This document shows, one piece after another, positions 13,105 through 16,643 of a stretch of 23,374 nt of DNA. The translations under genes were made by a program, and so were the position numbers. Source of the DNA: a virus; the UHGV virus genome UHGV-0281963. One strand, 5' to 3'. Under the pieces are notes generated by a model, which made no database searches, was not told where the DNA came from, and saw only the letters and a program-made list of their open reading frames with translations. Position 1 is the first letter of the stretch; each line of letters begins with the position of its first letter.

Positions 13105-13845
13105 TCACATACCCTGACGTCCAACGTTTGACCGCCAGCTCTCCCAGTTAAAATTCACCCAACGACCACCGTTCATGGTCATCCGGTCCATAATCCTCTC
13201 ACCAAGAAGCGTGCTCATTGCGGCATGATTCAGGTTTGTCAGCATCCCGACACTGCGCAGTGATGCCGTCCGGCGGTCAACAATCTGGTGCAGTACCACC
13301 TGCTCGTTTTTCGTCTCACGCTGGATGCCAATTTCGTCAAGAACCAGGAGGTCCACTTCGCACAGTTCACGCAAAAATTTTTCCCCTGACAGTCCGTCGT
13401 CATAGCTGGCATGTAACGCGCTCATCACATCCGCCACGGTGACCACTATCACGGATTTACCGGCCTTCAGCAGACGATTACCCACAGCCGCCGCCAGATG
13501 ATTTTTTCCGGTTCCCGGATTCCCGCTGAACACGAAGTTTGTATAACCGGTCATCAATTCATCGACAATGGATTTCGCCTGGCTCAGAGCATGGCGCTGA
13601 CCGTCGTTCTGCACCCGGTAGTTCCCGAATGAGCACTTCCTGTGAAGCGGCTGGATGCCCGCACGGTTCAGGATTTTTTCAACCCGCGCCTGATGATTCA
13701 GGCGGTTAATTTCCTCGCTGCGCTTACGGCCCTCAGCCAGTTGCCATTCCCGCCATTCGTCGGTCGTCCGGAACGGTGCTGCCACGTGCGGTGGTGCCAG
13801 ACGGCGCACCCGTTCAAGAATCCCTCCAGTCGAAATGTTTTTCAT
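13105..13845 (-). CDS. DnaC-like replicative helicase loader (IstB-like AAA+ ATPase), YdaV-like
   Basis: Walker A GNPGTGKNHLAAA, Walker B DLLVLDEIG, and overall co-linearity with E. coli DnaC (…CSFGNYRVQNDGQ…MLTNLNHAAMSTLLGERIMDRM…). Confidence 0.85.
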   Translation of the reverse strand: MKNISTGGILERVRRLAPPHVAAPFRTTDEWREWQLAEGRKRSEEINRLNHQARVEKILNRAGIQPLHRKCSFGNYRVQNDGQRHALSQAKSIVDELMTGYTNFVFSGNPGTGKNHLAAAVGNRLLKAGKSVIVVTVADVMSALHASYDDGLSGEKFLRELCEVDLLVLDEIGIQRETKNEQVVLHQIVDRRTASLRSVGMLTNLNHAAMSTLLGERIMDRMTMNGGRWVNFNWESWRSNVGRQGM

Positions 13846-13851
13846 GGCTGA

Positions 13852-14934
13852 TTACCCCCTGAAACCCGGCGGAATTTCGGTGTCCGGTTCAGAAATGTGA
13901 TTCACGCAACGCAGGCTGACTGCGCCAGCCTTCGGCAGCGACCACGGATTTTCGAAATTCCTGTTCGGGCCAAAAAACGTCGATGCCTGCTGAACAAATT
14001 CAGTTCCCGCTTTCCCGGTAGCCTCCAGGTATCTTGCGTAACGCCTCACGCCATCCAGCACGACATCCGGTGACACCCCTTCGCGTAATCTGGCCCTCCA
14101 GGCATTGAACGCGGATTTCTTCGGGTTTGACCCTGCCCGATGCGGATATTCACGCCAGACCCGTTCGAACACGTCAGGATAATCAACTCGTCCCGCAGAC
14201 GGTCCCGGCATCGCCCGGGTTAACCCAATCGGCTTCCCGCTCATCGCGGAATCGGCTTCAGGCTGCTGCGGTTGGCGTTGTTGCTCCGGTTCGACGATCA
14301 GCACCTGCTGCACACAACGCCCGGAATCTGCTTCCGGTGTCGTGCCAGCTGGTCCTGGACGTTCAGTCAGAACAGGACAAAAATCCCCCTGTGGGTCCGT
14401 GGCGATTTTTTCGCCATGGACCAGAAGGGTTTTATCCCTTTCCTGTTCTTGTTCCTGTTCCTGTTCTTGGCTTGAAAGGGGCTCTGAAGGGGCTTCAATT
14501 TTCCGACATGATTCACGTCTGACATCCAGGTGGAAATCATCCTTATATCTATCATAAAAGGATGATAAAAAAGGATTTTCCAGCAACGCGGAATATTCAT
14601 TTCTTACCCCAGCACAACGGTTATCGCCAGGTTTCAGCGATTCACCAACCTGCCATGCTGCCATTTCATGCACCCATACAACCTCAGAATCATGGTCATA
14701 GCTGCAAAAACCAGCCTCGCAAGCCATTTGAAGCCCCTTAGAAGCCCCTTCAGGATCAAGTCCGGTTTCGTGAGCAATGTACAAAACAGGCAGGTAATAA
14801 AGGCCCAGCATATTGGAATGAGGCGAGGTCATCATATACAACGCCACTACCATACTTTCCGGACCAGACTTCCTTAGTTTTCGCCCTGTATCGCCTAACC
14901 AGAACTGAGGTGAAATTGTTGCGTAATTACGCAT
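13852..14934 (-). CDS. phage replication initiation/organiser protein (YdaU-like), with internal QEQEQEQEQE repeat
   Basis: 360-aa ORF immediately upstream of the DnaC-like gene (Rac ydaU-ydaV-like order); RBS GAGGGG before ATG 14934; contains an internal copy of the iteron-like repeat. Confidence 0.7.
   Translation of the reverse strand: MRNYATISPQFWLGDTGRKLRKSGPESMVVALYMMTSPHSNMLGLYYLPVLYIAHETGLDPEGASKGLQMACEAGFCSYDHDSEVVWVHEMAAWQVGESLKPGDNRCAGVRNEYSALLENPFLSSFYDRYKDDFHLDVRRESCRKIEAPSEPLSSQEQEQEQEQERDKTLLVHGEKIATDPQGDFCPVLTERPGPAGTTPEADSGRCVQQVLIVEPEQQRQPQQPEADSAMSGKPIGLTRAMPGPSAGRVDYPDVFERVWREYPHRAGSNPKKSAFNAWRARLREGVSPDVVLDGVRRYARYLEATGKAGTEFVQQASTFFGPNRNFENPWSLPKAGAVSLRCVNHISEPDTEIPPGFRG
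14194..14283. repeat. iteron-like direct repeat, copy A (inside the replication gene)
   Basis: cgcagacggtcccggcatcgcccgggttaacccaatcggcttc...aggctgctgcggttggcgtt recurs at 14966-15027 and 15058-15117. Confidence 0.6.
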
Positions 14935-14965
14935 AGTCCCCTCGCATACAAGATTTACTCCATAC

Positions 14966-15117
14966 CGCAGACGGTCCCGGTATCTCCCGGGTTAACCCAA
15001 TCGGCTTCAGGCTGCTGCGGTTGGTGTGACTGCACATTGGTGTGACTGCACATCTTCACAGACGGTCCCGGTATCTCCGGGTTAACCCAATCGGCTTCAG
15101 GCTGCTGCGGTTGGTGT
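14966..15117. repeat. iteron-like direct repeats, copies B and C, separated by a tandem 16-bp duplication (ttggtgtgactgcaca x2 at 15021-15052)
   Basis: Two near-identical ~60-bp units (gacggtcccggtatctc(c)cgggttaacccaatcggcttcaggctgctgcggttggtgt) upstream of the replication gene start; seen directly in sequence. Confidence 0.6.
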
Positions 15118-15187
15118 TGTTGCTGGCGAAATTCTTCCAGATGTGGCAGAATTATTCCCGTGTATTGCTCCATGCCCTGCCTGAATA

Positions 15188-15484
15188 TCAGATGTTCATC
15201 AGGATTTGCTCAGAACGTCCGGCCCCAACCGGACGTTTTTTATTTGCATGAACGTTAATGGCATGCTGGAAAGCCCGGCTGATCGGACTGATATCAGATG
15301 CCATCTGGAACGCGCATAAAATCGCCGCGATGTATCGCCAGTCGGTACGACTGACCTTCGATTCATGGCAGCCAATCATCTTCGCCAGTCCCCTTTGCGT
15401 CAGAGCTGACAGGTTGATAAGTAAATCCGTTTCAGCGCGATCGATATCGCGCTGTGACAGTTTGCTGTAACTTGTTTGTGACAT
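15188..15484 (-). CDS. cII: CII-like transcriptional activator
   Basis: C-terminus ...NKKRPVGAGRSEQILMNI parallels lambda CII ...NKKRPAATERSEQIQMEF; HTH-like segment LAKMIGCHESKVSRTDWR; located downstream of cro on the same strand. Confidence 0.7.
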   Translation of the reverse strand: MSQTSYSKLSQRDIDRAETDLLINLSALTQRGLAKMIGCHESKVSRTDWRYIAAILCAFQMASDISPISRAFQHAINVHANKKRPVGAGRSEQILMNI

Positions 15485-15550
15485 TTGTTAATTTTCCTAT
15501 ATTGATATGGGGTTAAGCGGCAATCCCCAATGGGTTTGCCACTGATGTTT

Positions 15551-15594
15551 GCTCACCCTGTTAGAGGTGAACGACCAGCAATGTTAAAGAGCGG
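15551..15594 (-). promoter_or_regulatory. nutR-like site (boxA plus candidate boxB) on the minus strand
   Basis: Minus-strand sequence ccGCTCTTTAAcattg (rc of 15579-15594) matches lambda boxA CGCTCTTA; followed by hairpin tcacc-tctaacag-ggtga (rc of 15555-15572). boxB assignment tentative. Confidence 0.5.
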
Positions 15595-15600
15595 TGTTAC

Positions 15601-15825
15601 TTATTCAGCCTGGTTCGGATGAGGAAACAGGTGCGGTAAGTCCGGGCGAATTTCGTAAGCCTTAACCTGACCATTGGTGGCATTAACGATAGCGAAAACT
15701 TTTTCAGGAGAAACTTTTCCGCCTCGCAACCATTTATGAACAGCGGGCTGTGATACGCCGCAATCAGCTGCAAGTCGTTTTTGACTGCCAACAATATTCA
15801 AGGCTCGCTGAATCACTAAATTCAT
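15601..15825 (-). CDS. cro: Cro-like HTH repressor
   Basis: MNLVIQRALNIVGSQKRLAADCGVSQPAVHKWLRGGKVSPEKVFAIVNATNGQV: small HTH protein divergent from cI across the operator region; GAGG 7 nt before ATG 15825. The ORF-track start at 15879 is rejected as a hydrophobic upstream extension. Confidence 0.7.
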   Translation of the reverse strand: MNLVIQRALNIVGSQKRLAADCGVSQPAVHKWLRGGKVSPEKVFAIVNATNGQVKAYEIRPDLPHLFPHPNQAE

Positions 15826-15852
15826 GAGCATACCTCTACAGCAAATAAAGCA

Positions 15853-15924
15853 TAACCAAAAATAACATGAGTTATACACCAGGGCAATAACAATTGTTGT
15901 TTTACTTTTGATAACCGTGGTTAT
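15853..15924. promoter_or_regulatory. OR operator region between cro and cI: ATAAC-N4-GTTAT palindromes
   Basis: ataacatgagttat (15862-15875) and ataaccgtggttat (15911-15924), plus ataaccaaaaataac and palindrome aacaattgtt (15889-15898). Confidence 0.55.
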
Positions 15925-15935
15925 AGATTACAGGT

Positions 15936-16643
15936 ATGAAAACATTCGCAGAAAGACTAAATGCCGCCATGAGTTCAGCCGGGTTGTCACAAGCACAACT
16001 TGCAGACATGGTGGGGGTATCACAACCAGCCATACAAAAGATGTCATCTGGTAAAACAACCGGATCACGTAAAATGGTCGAATTAGCCAACGCGTTAAGA
16101 GTTCGCCCTGAATGGCTAAGCTCTGGTATAGGGTCAATGAGACCACAGAGCGCAGAAGAGCCATCTAATGCTCGGGAATCATCTTTAAAAGCTATCGCCT
16201 GGGATGATCATCAAAATGATAATGAAGAATTTGTTGCGCTCCCCCTTCTAAATATTTCACTTTCAGCTGGCGGAGGAAGTTGTGCATTGGAGGAGTCCGC
16301 AGAATTCTCTCTAGTTTTTAGGCGCTATTACCTGAAAAAAATGGGAGTTCCAGAAAAAGCGGCAAAGTTGGTCAGGGTTGTTGGGCAAAGCATGGAGCCA
16401 ACACTCCATGATGGTGATGTGGTGGGGGTAAACACGCAAGATACGAGCATCAGGGATGGTAAAACATATGCAATTTGCCAAGCTGATTTGTTAAGGGTAA
16501 AAACGCTCATAGCCACGCCAACATCGGTAATTATCAGATCGATAAACCGCGAAGAGTATCCTGATGAAGTAATGAACAGAGAAGAATTCTACAAAAACGT
16601 AAGAATCATAGGGCGAGTGTTCTGGTCATCACATAGCTGGTAA
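15936..16643 (+). CDS. cI: CI-type prophage repressor (N-terminal HTH, C-terminal S24 LexA-like autopeptidase)
   Basis: HTH segment LSQAQLADMVGVSQPAIQKM; S24 motif VVGQSMEPTL (Ser nucleophile) and downstream Lys (RVK); divergent from cro. Confidence 0.85.
   Translation: MKTFAERLNAAMSSAGLSQAQLADMVGVSQPAIQKMSSGKTTGSRKMVELANALRVRPEWLSSGIGSMRPQSAEEPSNARESSLKAIAWDDHQNDNEEFVALPLLNISLSAGGGSCALEESAEFSLVFRRYYLKKMGVPEKAAKLVRVVGQSMEPTLHDGDVVGVNTQDTSIRDGKTYAICQADLLRVKTLIATPTSVIIRSINREEYPDEVMNREEFYKNVRIIGRVFWSSHSW

What the first reader, a model, noticed from the sequence alone, without database searches (positions are those of the whole stretch)
14194..15173. Iteron-like repeats: an internal segment of the replication gene is duplicated twice just upstream of it
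A 60-90-bp unit (gacggtcccgg…gttaacccaatcggcttcaggctgctgcggttgg…) occurs once inside the YdaU-like gene (14194-14283) and twice in tandem upstream of its start (14966-15027, 15058-15117), with a 16-bp tandem duplication between the copies. The upstream copies create a 72-aa ORF (14955-15173) that repeats the peptide QPQQPEADWVNP. This could be an origin with initiator-binding iterons (as lambda ori lies inside O), or a recombination scar producing a repeat-derived pseudo-ORF.
Basis: seen in the sequence. Interest (0 to 1): 0.5.

Follow-up and report, generated by a model that had tools for sequence, protein, structure and literature searches.

The report
Unstable duplicated DNA beside replication gene
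A piece of a Shiga-toxin phage's replication gene has been copied one to three times just upstream of that gene; the copies behave like an unstable recombination by-product rather than a replication origin, and much better origin candidates lie elsewhere in the same gene.

Summary
The repeat is real. A 93-bp segment of the initiator gene (14193-14285) recurs twice upstream (14965-15026, 15059-15124), with a 16-bp tandem duplication between the copies.

It occurs only in one young clade of E. coli/Shigella Stx prophages (at least 95% identical, including the O104:H4 outbreak phage). It sits at the mosaic junction between the conserved cII-oop-pO block and the replication module.

- Copy number varies: 1, 2 or 3 units of 90 or 113 bp.
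- Upstream and internal copies evolve in concert.
- Recombination between them deleted the initiator's N-terminal half in two genomes.
- Relatives with 70% N-terminal identity have no upstream copies.

The 72-aa ORF shows no coding constraint. Its reading frame differs between alleles, and all six DNA differences are nonsynonymous, against 9 synonymous and 3 nonsynonymous in cII.

No AT-rich element adjoins the array. Its core (GAAGCCGATT) does not fit the site family that travels with the initiator's winged-helix domain. That family is an 11-bp motif, GAAGCCCCTTC (14475-14496 and, inverted, 14730-14751), flanking an AT-rich core and conserved in position across relatives of 46-98% identity.

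Verdict: a lineage-specific minisatellite or duplication scar with a by-product ORF. An iteron role is unsupported but not excluded without binding tests.

The parts
14193..14285 (-). Internal copy of the repeat. It lies in the inter-domain linker of the replication initiator gene (codons about 217-247, QPQQPEADSAMSGKPIGLTRAMPGPSAG). It has two AATCGGCTTC cores, at 14227 and 14250.
14325..14334 (-). Third, degenerate core (AATCTGCTTC), encoding the PEADS of 'TTPEADS'. It belongs to the older linker repeat shared with Tritos-type initiators.
14965..15026 (-). Upstream unit 1, with one core at 14999. It lacks the 23-nt segment.
15021..15058 (.). Inter-unit spacer containing the exact 16-bp tandem duplication (15021-15036 and 15037-15052). 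It is absent from one-unit alleles and has no detectable source elsewhere in the window.
15059..15124 (-). Upstream unit 2, with one core at 15089. Its end abuts the pO -35 hexamer.
14955..15173 (-). 72-aa ORF (phrog_2751, unknown function). It is built from the pO/oop 5' region plus the repeat units. Best read as a by-product ORF.
15124..15152 (+). pO-like promoter, TGGCGA-17 nt-CAGAAT with an extended TG. It is positionally homologous to lambda pO (TTGAGT-17-CATAAT).
   Evidence: The hexamers were read from the alignment. The simple promoter scan did not list this site.
15159..15245 (+). oop-like antisense RNA ending in an intrinsic terminator (stem 15212-15239 plus a T run). It overlaps the 3' end of cII.
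   Evidence: z = -3.7; phage 21 annotates oopRNA at the homologous place. The 5' end is inferred.
13852..14934 (-). Replication initiator gene (360 aa). It has a winged-helix N-terminal domain (about residues 1-140), a QEQEQE linker, a PEADS linker, and a C-terminal domain whose last 25 residues resemble the DnaT tail.
14475..14496 (+). Two 11-bp-phased copies of GAAGGGGCT (gene sense AGCCCCTTC). This is the linker-side cluster of the better iteron candidate.
14530..14589 (.). AT-rich stretch (GC 0.33) with a small inverted repeat (14536-14566), lying between the two 11-bp-motif clusters. Candidate unwinding element.
14730..14751 (-). Two 11-bp-phased copies of the same motif in inverted orientation. 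They fall in the codons of the predicted recognition helix (EGASKGL).
15188..15484 (-). cII gene (Pfam Phage_CII), the conserved block immediately upstream of the array.

Best explanation
The upstream copies are a lineage-specific, recombinationally unstable tandem array (a minisatellite). It arose when part of the initiator gene's repeat-prone linker was duplicated into the mosaic junction between the conserved cII-oop-pO block and the replication module.

Shown:
- The ancestral upstream unit was about 113 bp and carried two AATCGGCTTC cores.
- Loss of 23 nt between those two cores gave the 90-bp unit seen in the window.
- Unequal exchange between units gives 1-, 2- and 3-unit alleles.
- Gene conversion keeps upstream and internal copies alike.
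- Exchange between an upstream unit and the internal copy deletes the initiator's N-terminal half and inactivates the replication gene.

Inferred:
- The 72-aa ORF is a by-product. Its first ~15 codons are the oop promoter region read on the other strand, and the rest is repeat DNA that happens to stay open because 90 is a multiple of 3.
- The array is not the origin. The origin most likely lies inside the 5' half of the initiator gene, where two inverted pairs of an 11-bp motif (GAAGCCCCTTC) flank an AT-rich core.
For: - Junction position. Homology to lambda and to P22-like UPF_BP1 runs through the cII 3' end, the oop terminator and pO, and stops exactly where the array begins.
- Restricted distribution. 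In complete E. coli genomes the array region is in 81 genomes and the matching N-terminal module in 78, all at least 95% identical. Homologs of the ORF are E. coli only. Loci at 70-72% identity (L016-L020) and about 60 carriers of the same linker and C-terminal module with other N-termini have no upstream copy.
- Polymorphism. Of 34 clade loci, 26 have two units, 6 have one, 1 has 3x90 bp and 1 has 3x113 bp. The database also holds 42-, 72- and 102-aa ORF forms.
- One-unit alleles lack the spacer, so they are deletions from longer arrays. L115 has a different crossover point, so deletion happened at least twice.
- Concerted evolution. In 23CRST047 the internal copy and all three upstream units share AATCGGCATC, and unit 1 differs from the internal copy at 1 of 80 nt. 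The window's copies all have AATCGGCTTC.
- Deletion product. SW071611 and SW071619 carry a clean internal/upstream recombinant that lacks the N-terminal module and is annotated as a frameshifted pseudogene.
- No coding constraint on the ORF. Alleles end in three different frames (GDTGTVCGME, EIPGPSAVWSKSCMRGDYA, RYRDRL). The 113-bp alleles break the ORF into pieces.
- Substitution pattern. The first 84 nt of the ORF show 0 synonymous and 5 nonsynonymous differences between the window and L009, plus one more nonsynonymous in L118. cII over the same pair shows 9 synonymous and 3 nonsynonymous. Hypergeometric p is about 0.009, my calculation from those counts.
- The sense RNA over the array has no special structure (z = -0.16).
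- The array is not origin-like. There is no AT-rich stretch beside it (GC 0.52-0.58) and no DnaA box nearby. Its cores score -4.8 to -9.1 bits against the matrix of the conserved 11-bp sites.
Against: - Every clade member keeps at least one upstream unit, and most keep exactly two identical ones. That could reflect selection. However, no simple homologous exchange can remove the last unit without destroying the initiator, and the clade is young.
- The core GAAGCCGATTC resembles the candidate iteron GAAGCCCCTTC at 9 of 11 positions.
- One internal core keeps the DNA motif although it is read in a different frame (KPIG instead of EAD).
- Among old paralogous cores the motif is invariant while the spacers between them are only about 50% identical. 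So some DNA-level role for the core cannot be excluded.
- The ORF stays open to within 20 nt of the initiator start in 33 of 34 alleles, which could matter for translational coupling.
- No experimental data exist for binding, replication or expression.
Confidence: 0.62

Rival explanations
1. Accessory iterons. The upstream units and the internal copy are extra binding sites for the phage initiator or a partner protein. They would act as part of the origin or as a cis-acting control region, for example by titration or handcuffing, in the way phage P4's crr repeats duplicate its ori iterons (P4 comparison from memory).
For: - Five copies of a 10-bp core are clustered within 870 bp in and next to the initiator gene.
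- Tritos-type initiators carry 3-4 copies of the core at 24/72/24-nt spacing in the same linker, comparable to lambda's four iterons in O's linker.
- The core matches the 11-bp candidate iteron at 9 of 11 positions.
- One core persists out of frame.
- At least one upstream unit is present in all 34 clade loci.
Against: - The core travels with the linker and C-terminal module, not with the DNA-binding N-terminal domain. It occurs with two unrelated N-terminal domains, each of which has its own repeat family (AGCCCCTTC or CGTGAC).
- The four central Cs of the conserved site are at least 97% invariant. The GA substitution gives scores 17-34 bits below the window's true sites.
- Upstream copies are absent outside one young clade.
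- No AT-rich element is adjacent.
- Copy number and unit length vary freely.
- In the wider family all cores are in frame and encode (E/K)AD(S/R), so a peptide-level or repeat-history explanation is sufficient.
Confidence: 0.13
2. A real small gene or upstream ORF. The 42/72/102-aa product displays 1-3 copies of the initiator's own linker peptide QPQQPEAD and modulates replication as a mimic. Alternatively, its translation simply carries ribosomes from cII to the initiator start, preventing Rho polarity over 250 nt of inserted DNA.
For: - The ORF is annotated in all phage records and forms its own PHROG family.
- It starts 15 nt after cII and stops 20 nt before the initiator ATG, or overlaps that ATG in other alleles.
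- 90-bp units keep the frame, and 33 of 34 alleles keep one continuous ORF.
- The first 28 residues, including one QPQQP(E/D)AD, are present in every allele.
Against: - All six DNA differences in its first 84 nt are nonsynonymous, against 9 synonymous and 3 nonsynonymous in cII.
- C-terminal halves are read in three different frames among alleles.
- The ORF is fragmented in the 113-bp allele.
- No homolog exists outside this E. coli clade among 5.8 billion proteins.
- Its 5' end coincides with the conserved pO/oop element, which explains that conservation on the other strand.
Confidence: 0.13
3. A cis-regulatory element for transcription. The array, lying directly upstream of the pO -35 hexamer and inside the pR transcript, would tune oop antisense RNA synthesis or pR read-through into the replication genes according to copy number.
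For: The array abuts pO. Copy number is variable, as in contingency loci.
Against: - No promoter-like or terminator-like signals were found in the units.
- No RNA structure signal.
- No known operator or cII-box pattern was seen on reading the sequence.
- Lambda and P22-like phages run the same cII-oop-pO block without any such array.
Confidence: 0.07

Closest known systems
Lambda ori: four 18-19-bp iterons inside gene O, bound by O's N-terminal domain, next to an AT-rich region
   Same: The gene order is the same (cII, oop/pO, initiator, helicase loader). The repeated DNA lies in the linker-coding part of the initiator gene. The window's internal cores are 23 nt apart, similar to lambda's 20-24 nt iteron spacing.
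   Different: - The initiator is unrelated to O in sequence (phrog_1701, no Pfam domain).
- The repeat units are 57-113 bp, with copies outside the gene.
- No AT-rich region adjoins them.
- The repeat core follows the C-terminal module rather than the DNA-binding domain.
- The features that do parallel lambda ori are the 11-bp GAAGCCCCTTC sites and the AT-rich core at 14475-14751, not the reported repeat.
Tandem-repeat (VNTR or minisatellite) polymorphisms and duplication scars at module junctions of mosaic lambdoid phages
   Same: The array is head-to-tail with 1-3 units. It shows alleles differing by whole units, concerted evolution, recombinational deletion products, and a location exactly where homology between phage modules ends.
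   Different: The unit is derived from the coding sequence of the adjacent essential gene. The array and the gene therefore form a 772-bp direct repeat that can excise the initiator's DNA-binding domain. I found no published description of this particular array.
Phage P4 ori/crr and plasmid iteron control regions (recalled from memory, not checked here)
   Same: These are a second, separate set of larger direct repeats that duplicates sequence found at the primary initiator-binding region.
   Different: In P4 and in plasmids the repeated cores are proven initiator sites and the second region is conserved and required. Here conservation is absent outside one clade and binding is untested.
SPP1 G38P-type 'replisome organizer' initiators, whose origin lies inside their own gene (recalled from memory)
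   Same: Tritos-type relatives carry a Phage_rep_org_N-annotated N-terminus with two clusters of CGTGAC repeats 260 bp apart inside the gene. The window's initiator has two clusters of its own 11-bp motif about 255 bp apart.
   Different: The window's N-terminal domain has no Pfam family and a different site sequence. Neither origin has been mapped experimentally.
Lambda oop RNA and pO promoter
   Same: The terminator hairpin, the position overlapping the 3' end of cII, and the promoter position with 17-nt hexamer spacing are all conserved.
   Different: In lambda, pO lies in the first codons of O. Here it lies in the first codons of the by-product ORF, and the repeat array replaces what would be O coding sequence.

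Membership tests
Origin iterons (initiator-binding direct repeats) | Several short (about 11-22 bp) direct repeats, regularly spaced | tested here: inconclusive
   The units are 57-113 bp, which is too long. Their 10-bp core occurs five times at spacings of 23, 75, 674 and 90 nt. The Tritos-type linker has 3-4 cores at 24/72/24 nt.
Origin iterons (initiator-binding direct repeats) | Repeats co-inherited with the initiator's DNA-binding domain across relatives | tested here: not met
   The core occurs with two unrelated N-terminal domains. Upstream copies are absent from homologs with 70-72% N-terminal identity. A different 11-bp motif is the one that co-varies with this domain.
Origin iterons (initiator-binding direct repeats) | Adjacent AT-rich unwinding element | tested here: not met
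   GC is 0.52-0.58 across 14950-15130. The nearest AT-rich stretch (14530-14589, GC 0.33) is about 250 bp from the internal copy and about 380 bp from the array.
Origin iterons (initiator-binding direct repeats) | Specific binding by the cognate initiator, and requirement for replication | not testable with these tools
   This needs EMSA or footprinting and ori-plasmid assays.
Minisatellite / VNTR-type tandem duplication | Head-to-tail units whose number differs between otherwise near-identical genomes | tested here: met
   1, 2 and 3 units, of 90 or 113 bp, in genomes at least 95% identical.
Minisatellite / VNTR-type tandem duplication | Concerted evolution and recombination products between copies | tested here: met
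   A variant is shared by the internal and upstream copies in L009. There are two distinct one-unit junctions. An internal/upstream deletion is seen in L008.
Mosaic-junction scar in lambdoid phages | Located where homology between exchangeable modules ends | tested here: met
   Homology to lambda and to P22-like UPF_BP1 ends at the pO -35 region, the first base of the array.
Conserved protein-coding gene (the 72-aa ORF, phrog_2751) | Reading frame and length conserved among alleles | tested here: not met
   Lengths are 41-102 aa, there are three different C-terminal frames, and the ORF is fragmented in L009.
Conserved protein-coding gene (the 72-aa ORF, phrog_2751) | Excess of synonymous over nonsynonymous change | tested here: not met
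   0 synonymous and 6 nonsynonymous, against 9 synonymous and 3 nonsynonymous in the neighbouring cII. The numbers are small.
   No Pfam family for the whole protein or for residues 1-160 at E<=10. No precomputed Pfam domain on the N-terminal part of 120 listed homologs. A remote structural relationship was not tested against DUF1376 models.
Winged-helix origin-binding initiator (functional class) | N-terminal winged helix-turn-helix fold | tested here: inconclusive
   The AlphaFold2 model has pLDDT 84 and an H-S-H-H-S-S topology. The best PDB matches are all wHTH proteins (MarR, CAP, BusR) but weak, with E>=0.07 and TM 0.28-0.38.
Lambda-type oop antisense RNA | Promoter just downstream of cII, transcript antisense to the cII 3' end, ending in an intrinsic terminator | tested here: met
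   Terminator at 15212-15245. Positional homology of promoter and terminator with lambda and phage 21. Fold z = -3.7. There is no Rfam family for oop; the only hit was a sub-threshold AgvB match on the terminator.

The most novel reading that the evidence does not exclude
The array and the internal copy together form a functional two-part control element. The GAAGCCGATT cores would be low-affinity or partner-protein binding sites that pair the region upstream of the initiator gene with its linker, by looping or handcuffing. The variable unit number would then tune replication or initiator expression between Stx-phage lineages, including the O104:H4 outbreak phage. The same direct repeats would also provide a built-in route for prophage 'grounding', by excising the initiator's DNA-binding domain.
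Probability: 0.1. Interest if true: 0.6.

Novelty: new member of a known kind. Interest (0 to 1): 0.3.

Why it matters
The repeat itself is an ordinary kind of object, an unstable duplication at a phage mosaic junction. Three points are still useful.

1. The 72-aa 'hypothetical protein' annotated in Stx phages, including the O104:H4 outbreak prophage, is probably not a gene.
2. The 772-bp direct repeat is a natural route by which these prophages lose their initiator and become replication-defective. It is also a variable-number marker that could help type closely related Stx prophages.
3. Following the lead exposed a much better origin candidate for a widespread initiator family that has no Pfam domain. 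It consists of 11-bp GAAGCCCCTTC sites in a fixed architecture inside the gene, conserved across hosts of 36-70% GC. This makes the origin of this Stx-phage replication type directly testable.

Tried and rejected
- Rfam scan of 13500-16200 gave only two sub-threshold chance hits, MIR7532 and AgvB.
- Folding the sense RNA across the array gave no signal (z = -0.16).
- The DnaA-box search found nothing near the locus.
- The source of the 30-nt inter-unit spacer was not found. Local alignment to the gene and to the whole window was no better than for shuffled sequence.
- I tested the idea that the small ORF is the remnant of a displaced initiator gene starting MEQYTGIILPHLEEF. No longer protein with that N-terminus exists among the hits. 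That stretch is instead the pO region shared with lambda and P22-like phages in other reading frames.
- I tested whether the core GAAGCCGATT is constrained at the DNA level rather than as the peptide (E/K)AD(S/R). Codons are nearly uniform, but only two lineages are sampled and one synonymous variant (GCA) exists, so this is inconclusive.
- The AT-rich dip between the 11-bp clusters is the deepest mean dip across 41 relatives, but it is present in only about half of them and could reflect amino-acid content. It is supportive only.
- Sequence search of the PDB matched only the DnaT-like C-terminal tail.
- Literature searches found nothing on the origin of this replication module.
- One paper search and three other calls failed on syntax, coordinates or a file path and were repeated.
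Full report
**Setting**

The window is an E. coli Stx-type lambdoid prophage. It is 100% identical to strain FORC_069 over the locus and about 98% identical to Shigella phages POCJ13 and 75/02 Stx, Escherichia phages PhiR5_2 and phiSTEC1589-Stx1c, and the prophage of the O104:H4 outbreak strains.

The genes around the finding are as follows:
- cI (15936-16643, plus strand)
- cro-like (15601-15879, minus strand)
- cII (15188-15484, minus strand; Pfam Phage_CII)
- a 72-aa ORF (14955-15173, minus strand; phrog_2751, unknown function)
- a 360-aa replication protein (13852-14934, minus strand; phrog_1701 'DnaD-like helicase loader')
- a DnaC-like loader (13105-13845, minus strand)

The replication protein has no Pfam match, even at E<=10, so the 'YdaU-like' label is not supported.

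**Observation**

The repeat is real.
- The internal copy is 14193-14285.
- The upstream units are 14965-15026 and 15059-15124, and they form a 90-bp-period tandem array.
- The spacer between them holds an exact 16-bp tandem duplication (15021-15052).
- The internal copy has 23 extra nt because it carries two copies of a 10-bp core, AATCGGCTTC, 23 nt apart. The window's upstream units carry one.

**Where the array sits**

Alignment with lambda shows that the cII 3' end, the oop terminator and the pO promoter are conserved in position. Lambda has TTGAGT-17-CATAAT. The window has TGGCGA-17-CAGAAT with an extended TG at 15124-15152 on the plus strand.

The predicted oop-like RNA (about 15159-15245) ends in a strong terminator and folds significantly (z = -3.7). 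Phage 21 annotates oopRNA at the homologous site.

In lambda and in a P22-like Salmonella phage, homology to the window stops right after pO. The array therefore fills the mosaic junction between the cII-oop-pO block and the replication module. The first ~15 codons of the 72-aa ORF are simply the pO region read on the other strand.

**Distribution and polymorphism**

Among 5,426 complete E. coli genomes, the array region occurs in 81 and the matching N-terminal module of the initiator in 78. All are at least 95% identical. Protein homologs of the ORF are E. coli only: 10 clusters among 5.8 billion proteins.

Alleles differ by whole units. Of 34 clade loci, 26 have two units, six have one, one has three 90-bp units and one has three 113-bp units that retain the 23-nt segment. 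The database also holds 42-, 72- and 102-aa forms, and forms in which the upstream unit carries the internal-type 'SAMSGKPIGLTR' version.

One-unit alleles lack the inter-unit spacer, so they derive from longer arrays by deletion. Two different crossover points show that this happened at least twice.

In strain 23CRST047 the internal copy and all three upstream units share the variant AATCGGCATC, and unit 1 differs from the internal copy at 1 of 80 nt. All copies in the window have AATCGGCTTC. This is concerted evolution.

In SW071611 and SW071619, recombination between the internal copy and an upstream unit has removed the initiator's whole N-terminal module, leaving a frameshifted pseudogene.

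**Deeper relatives**

I fetched 87 loci encoding homologs of the N-terminal domain (25-98% identity; IMG/VR and GTDB genomes) and 80 loci encoding the linker and C-terminal module.

A long upstream/internal repeat exists only in the relatives that are at least 95% identical. The 70-72% relatives have none.

Carriers of the same linker with other N-terminal domains (Tritos-type 'replisome organizer') have 3-4 cores, all in frame, encoding (E/K)AD(S/R) at 24/72/24-nt spacing. They never have an upstream copy.

**The small ORF**

- Alleles end in three different reading frames.
- The 113-bp allele breaks the ORF into pieces of 41, 57 and 38 aa.
- Between the window and 23CRST047, the first 84 nt show 0 synonymous and 5 nonsynonymous differences, with one more nonsynonymous in L118. 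cII shows 9 synonymous and 3 nonsynonymous. Hypergeometric p is about 0.009 by my calculation.
- The sense RNA over the array is not unusually structured.

I read the ORF as a by-product of pO DNA plus in-frame repeat units.

**Is the repeat an origin?**

No AT-rich element adjoins the array and no DnaA box is nearby.

More importantly, the initiator gene contains a better candidate. It is an 11-bp motif with consensus TTCGAAGCCCCTTCGAAGC, whose four Cs are at least 97% invariant.

In the window it occurs as two phased copies at 14475-14496 and two inverted copies at 14730-14751. These flank an AT-rich stretch with a small inverted repeat (14530-14589, GC 0.33).

The same architecture is kept in nearly all homologs of 46-98% identity, from hosts of 36-70% GC:
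- two sites at about +180/+194
- two to four sites at about +438 to +475, spaced 11 bp apart

The linker cluster occurs in either orientation and so encodes different peptides (EAPSEPL or FEGAFKGL). Some loci add two or three copies in non-coding DNA just before the ribosome-binding site. These two observations argue for constraint at the DNA level.

The mean GC profile of 41 relatives has its deepest dip between the clusters, though only in about half of the loci.

The N-terminal domain is predicted (pLDDT 84) to be a winged helix. All structural matches are wHTH proteins, but they are weak.

Tritos-type initiators, with a different N-terminal domain, carry their own repeat family: CGTGAC clusters 260 bp apart inside the gene. 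This fits the lambda rule that iterons travel with the DNA-binding domain.

Scored with a matrix built from 101 linker and upstream sites, the window's four sites score 12.5-25 bits and are among its five top-scoring positions. The cores of the reported repeat score -4.8 to -9.1 bits.

**What remains open**

- The core GAAGCCGATTC resembles the 11-bp site at 9 of 11 positions.
- One internal core persists out of frame.
- Old paralogous cores are invariant while their spacers have diverged.
- Codon data are too shallow to separate DNA-level from peptide-level constraint.

A secondary DNA role for the core, and hence for the array, cannot be excluded without binding and replication assays. I found no literature on this module's origin.

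**Verdict**

The iteron or origin reading is not supported, and the 'recombination scar with a pseudo-ORF' reading is favoured, with confidence about 0.6.

The object is a new instance of a known kind, an unstable tandem duplication at a phage mosaic junction. It has two practical consequences: it provides a route to initiator loss, and it probably explains a spurious annotated gene. The more interesting result is the by-product, a conserved and testable origin architecture inside a widespread initiator gene that has no Pfam family.

Noticed in passing
window 14475-14496, 14530-14589, 14730-14751; loci L016-L095 at about +180/+194 and +438 to +475 from the gene start: An 11-bp motif (GAAGCCCCTTC) occurs in two clusters about 255 bp apart inside the initiator gene, around an AT-rich stretch. 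Its position is conserved across homologs of 46-98% identity. The linker cluster occurs in either orientation, and some loci have extra non-coding copies just before the RBS. This is a likely origin with iterons for an initiator family that has no Pfam domain.
   Followed up: yes
window 15124-15245 (+): A lambda-type pO promoter and an oop-like antisense RNA with a strong terminator overlap the 3' end of cII. The 5' end of the annotated 72-aa ORF coincides with this element.
   Followed up: yes
window 14435-14469: A hexanucleotide microsatellite (CTGTTC)n encodes the QEQEQE linker of the initiator. It differs by 6-bp steps between closely related phages, giving protein lengths of 358-366 aa.
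   Followed up: partly
window 13855-13929 (initiator residues 336-360): The last ~25 residues (CVNHISEPDTEIPPGFRG) weakly resemble the C-terminal tail of the host primosomal protein DnaT (PDB 2ru8, 6aep, 9zbt; E about 0.01). This hints that the phage initiator mimics DnaT's tail to engage host replication-restart or helicase-loading proteins. The tail is invariant in Tritos-type relatives.
   Followed up: partly
L006 (phage Tritos) 3145-3183 and 3405-3443: Tritos-type 'replisome organizer' genes carry two clusters of four (C)GTGAC repeats 260 bp apart inside the N-terminal-domain coding region. This architecture is analogous to the window's 11-bp motif clusters.
   Followed up: partly
L008 (E. 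coli SW071611) 2504-2571; also SW071619: The prophage initiator's N-terminal module has been deleted by recombination between the internal and upstream repeat copies. This is a natural replication-defective derivative.
   Followed up: yes
window 13852-14345 compared with L006/L007: The initiator is a mosaic. Its linker and C-terminal module are about 82% identical at the DNA level to those of more than 2,400 E. coli genomes, where the module is joined to an unrelated N-terminal domain. The exchange boundary lies near codon 190.
   Followed up: partly
window 15886-15901: An overlapping palindrome (AATAACAATTGT / ACAATTGTTGTT) lies in the cro-cI intergenic region. It is probably an operator of the immunity region.
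   Followed up: no
window 14364-14457 (+) and 15180-15241 (+): There are sub-threshold Rfam hits to MIR7532 (28 bits against a 100-bit cut-off) and to AgvB (20.5 against 56). The AgvB match covers only the oop-like terminator. Both are treated as chance.
   Followed up: partly
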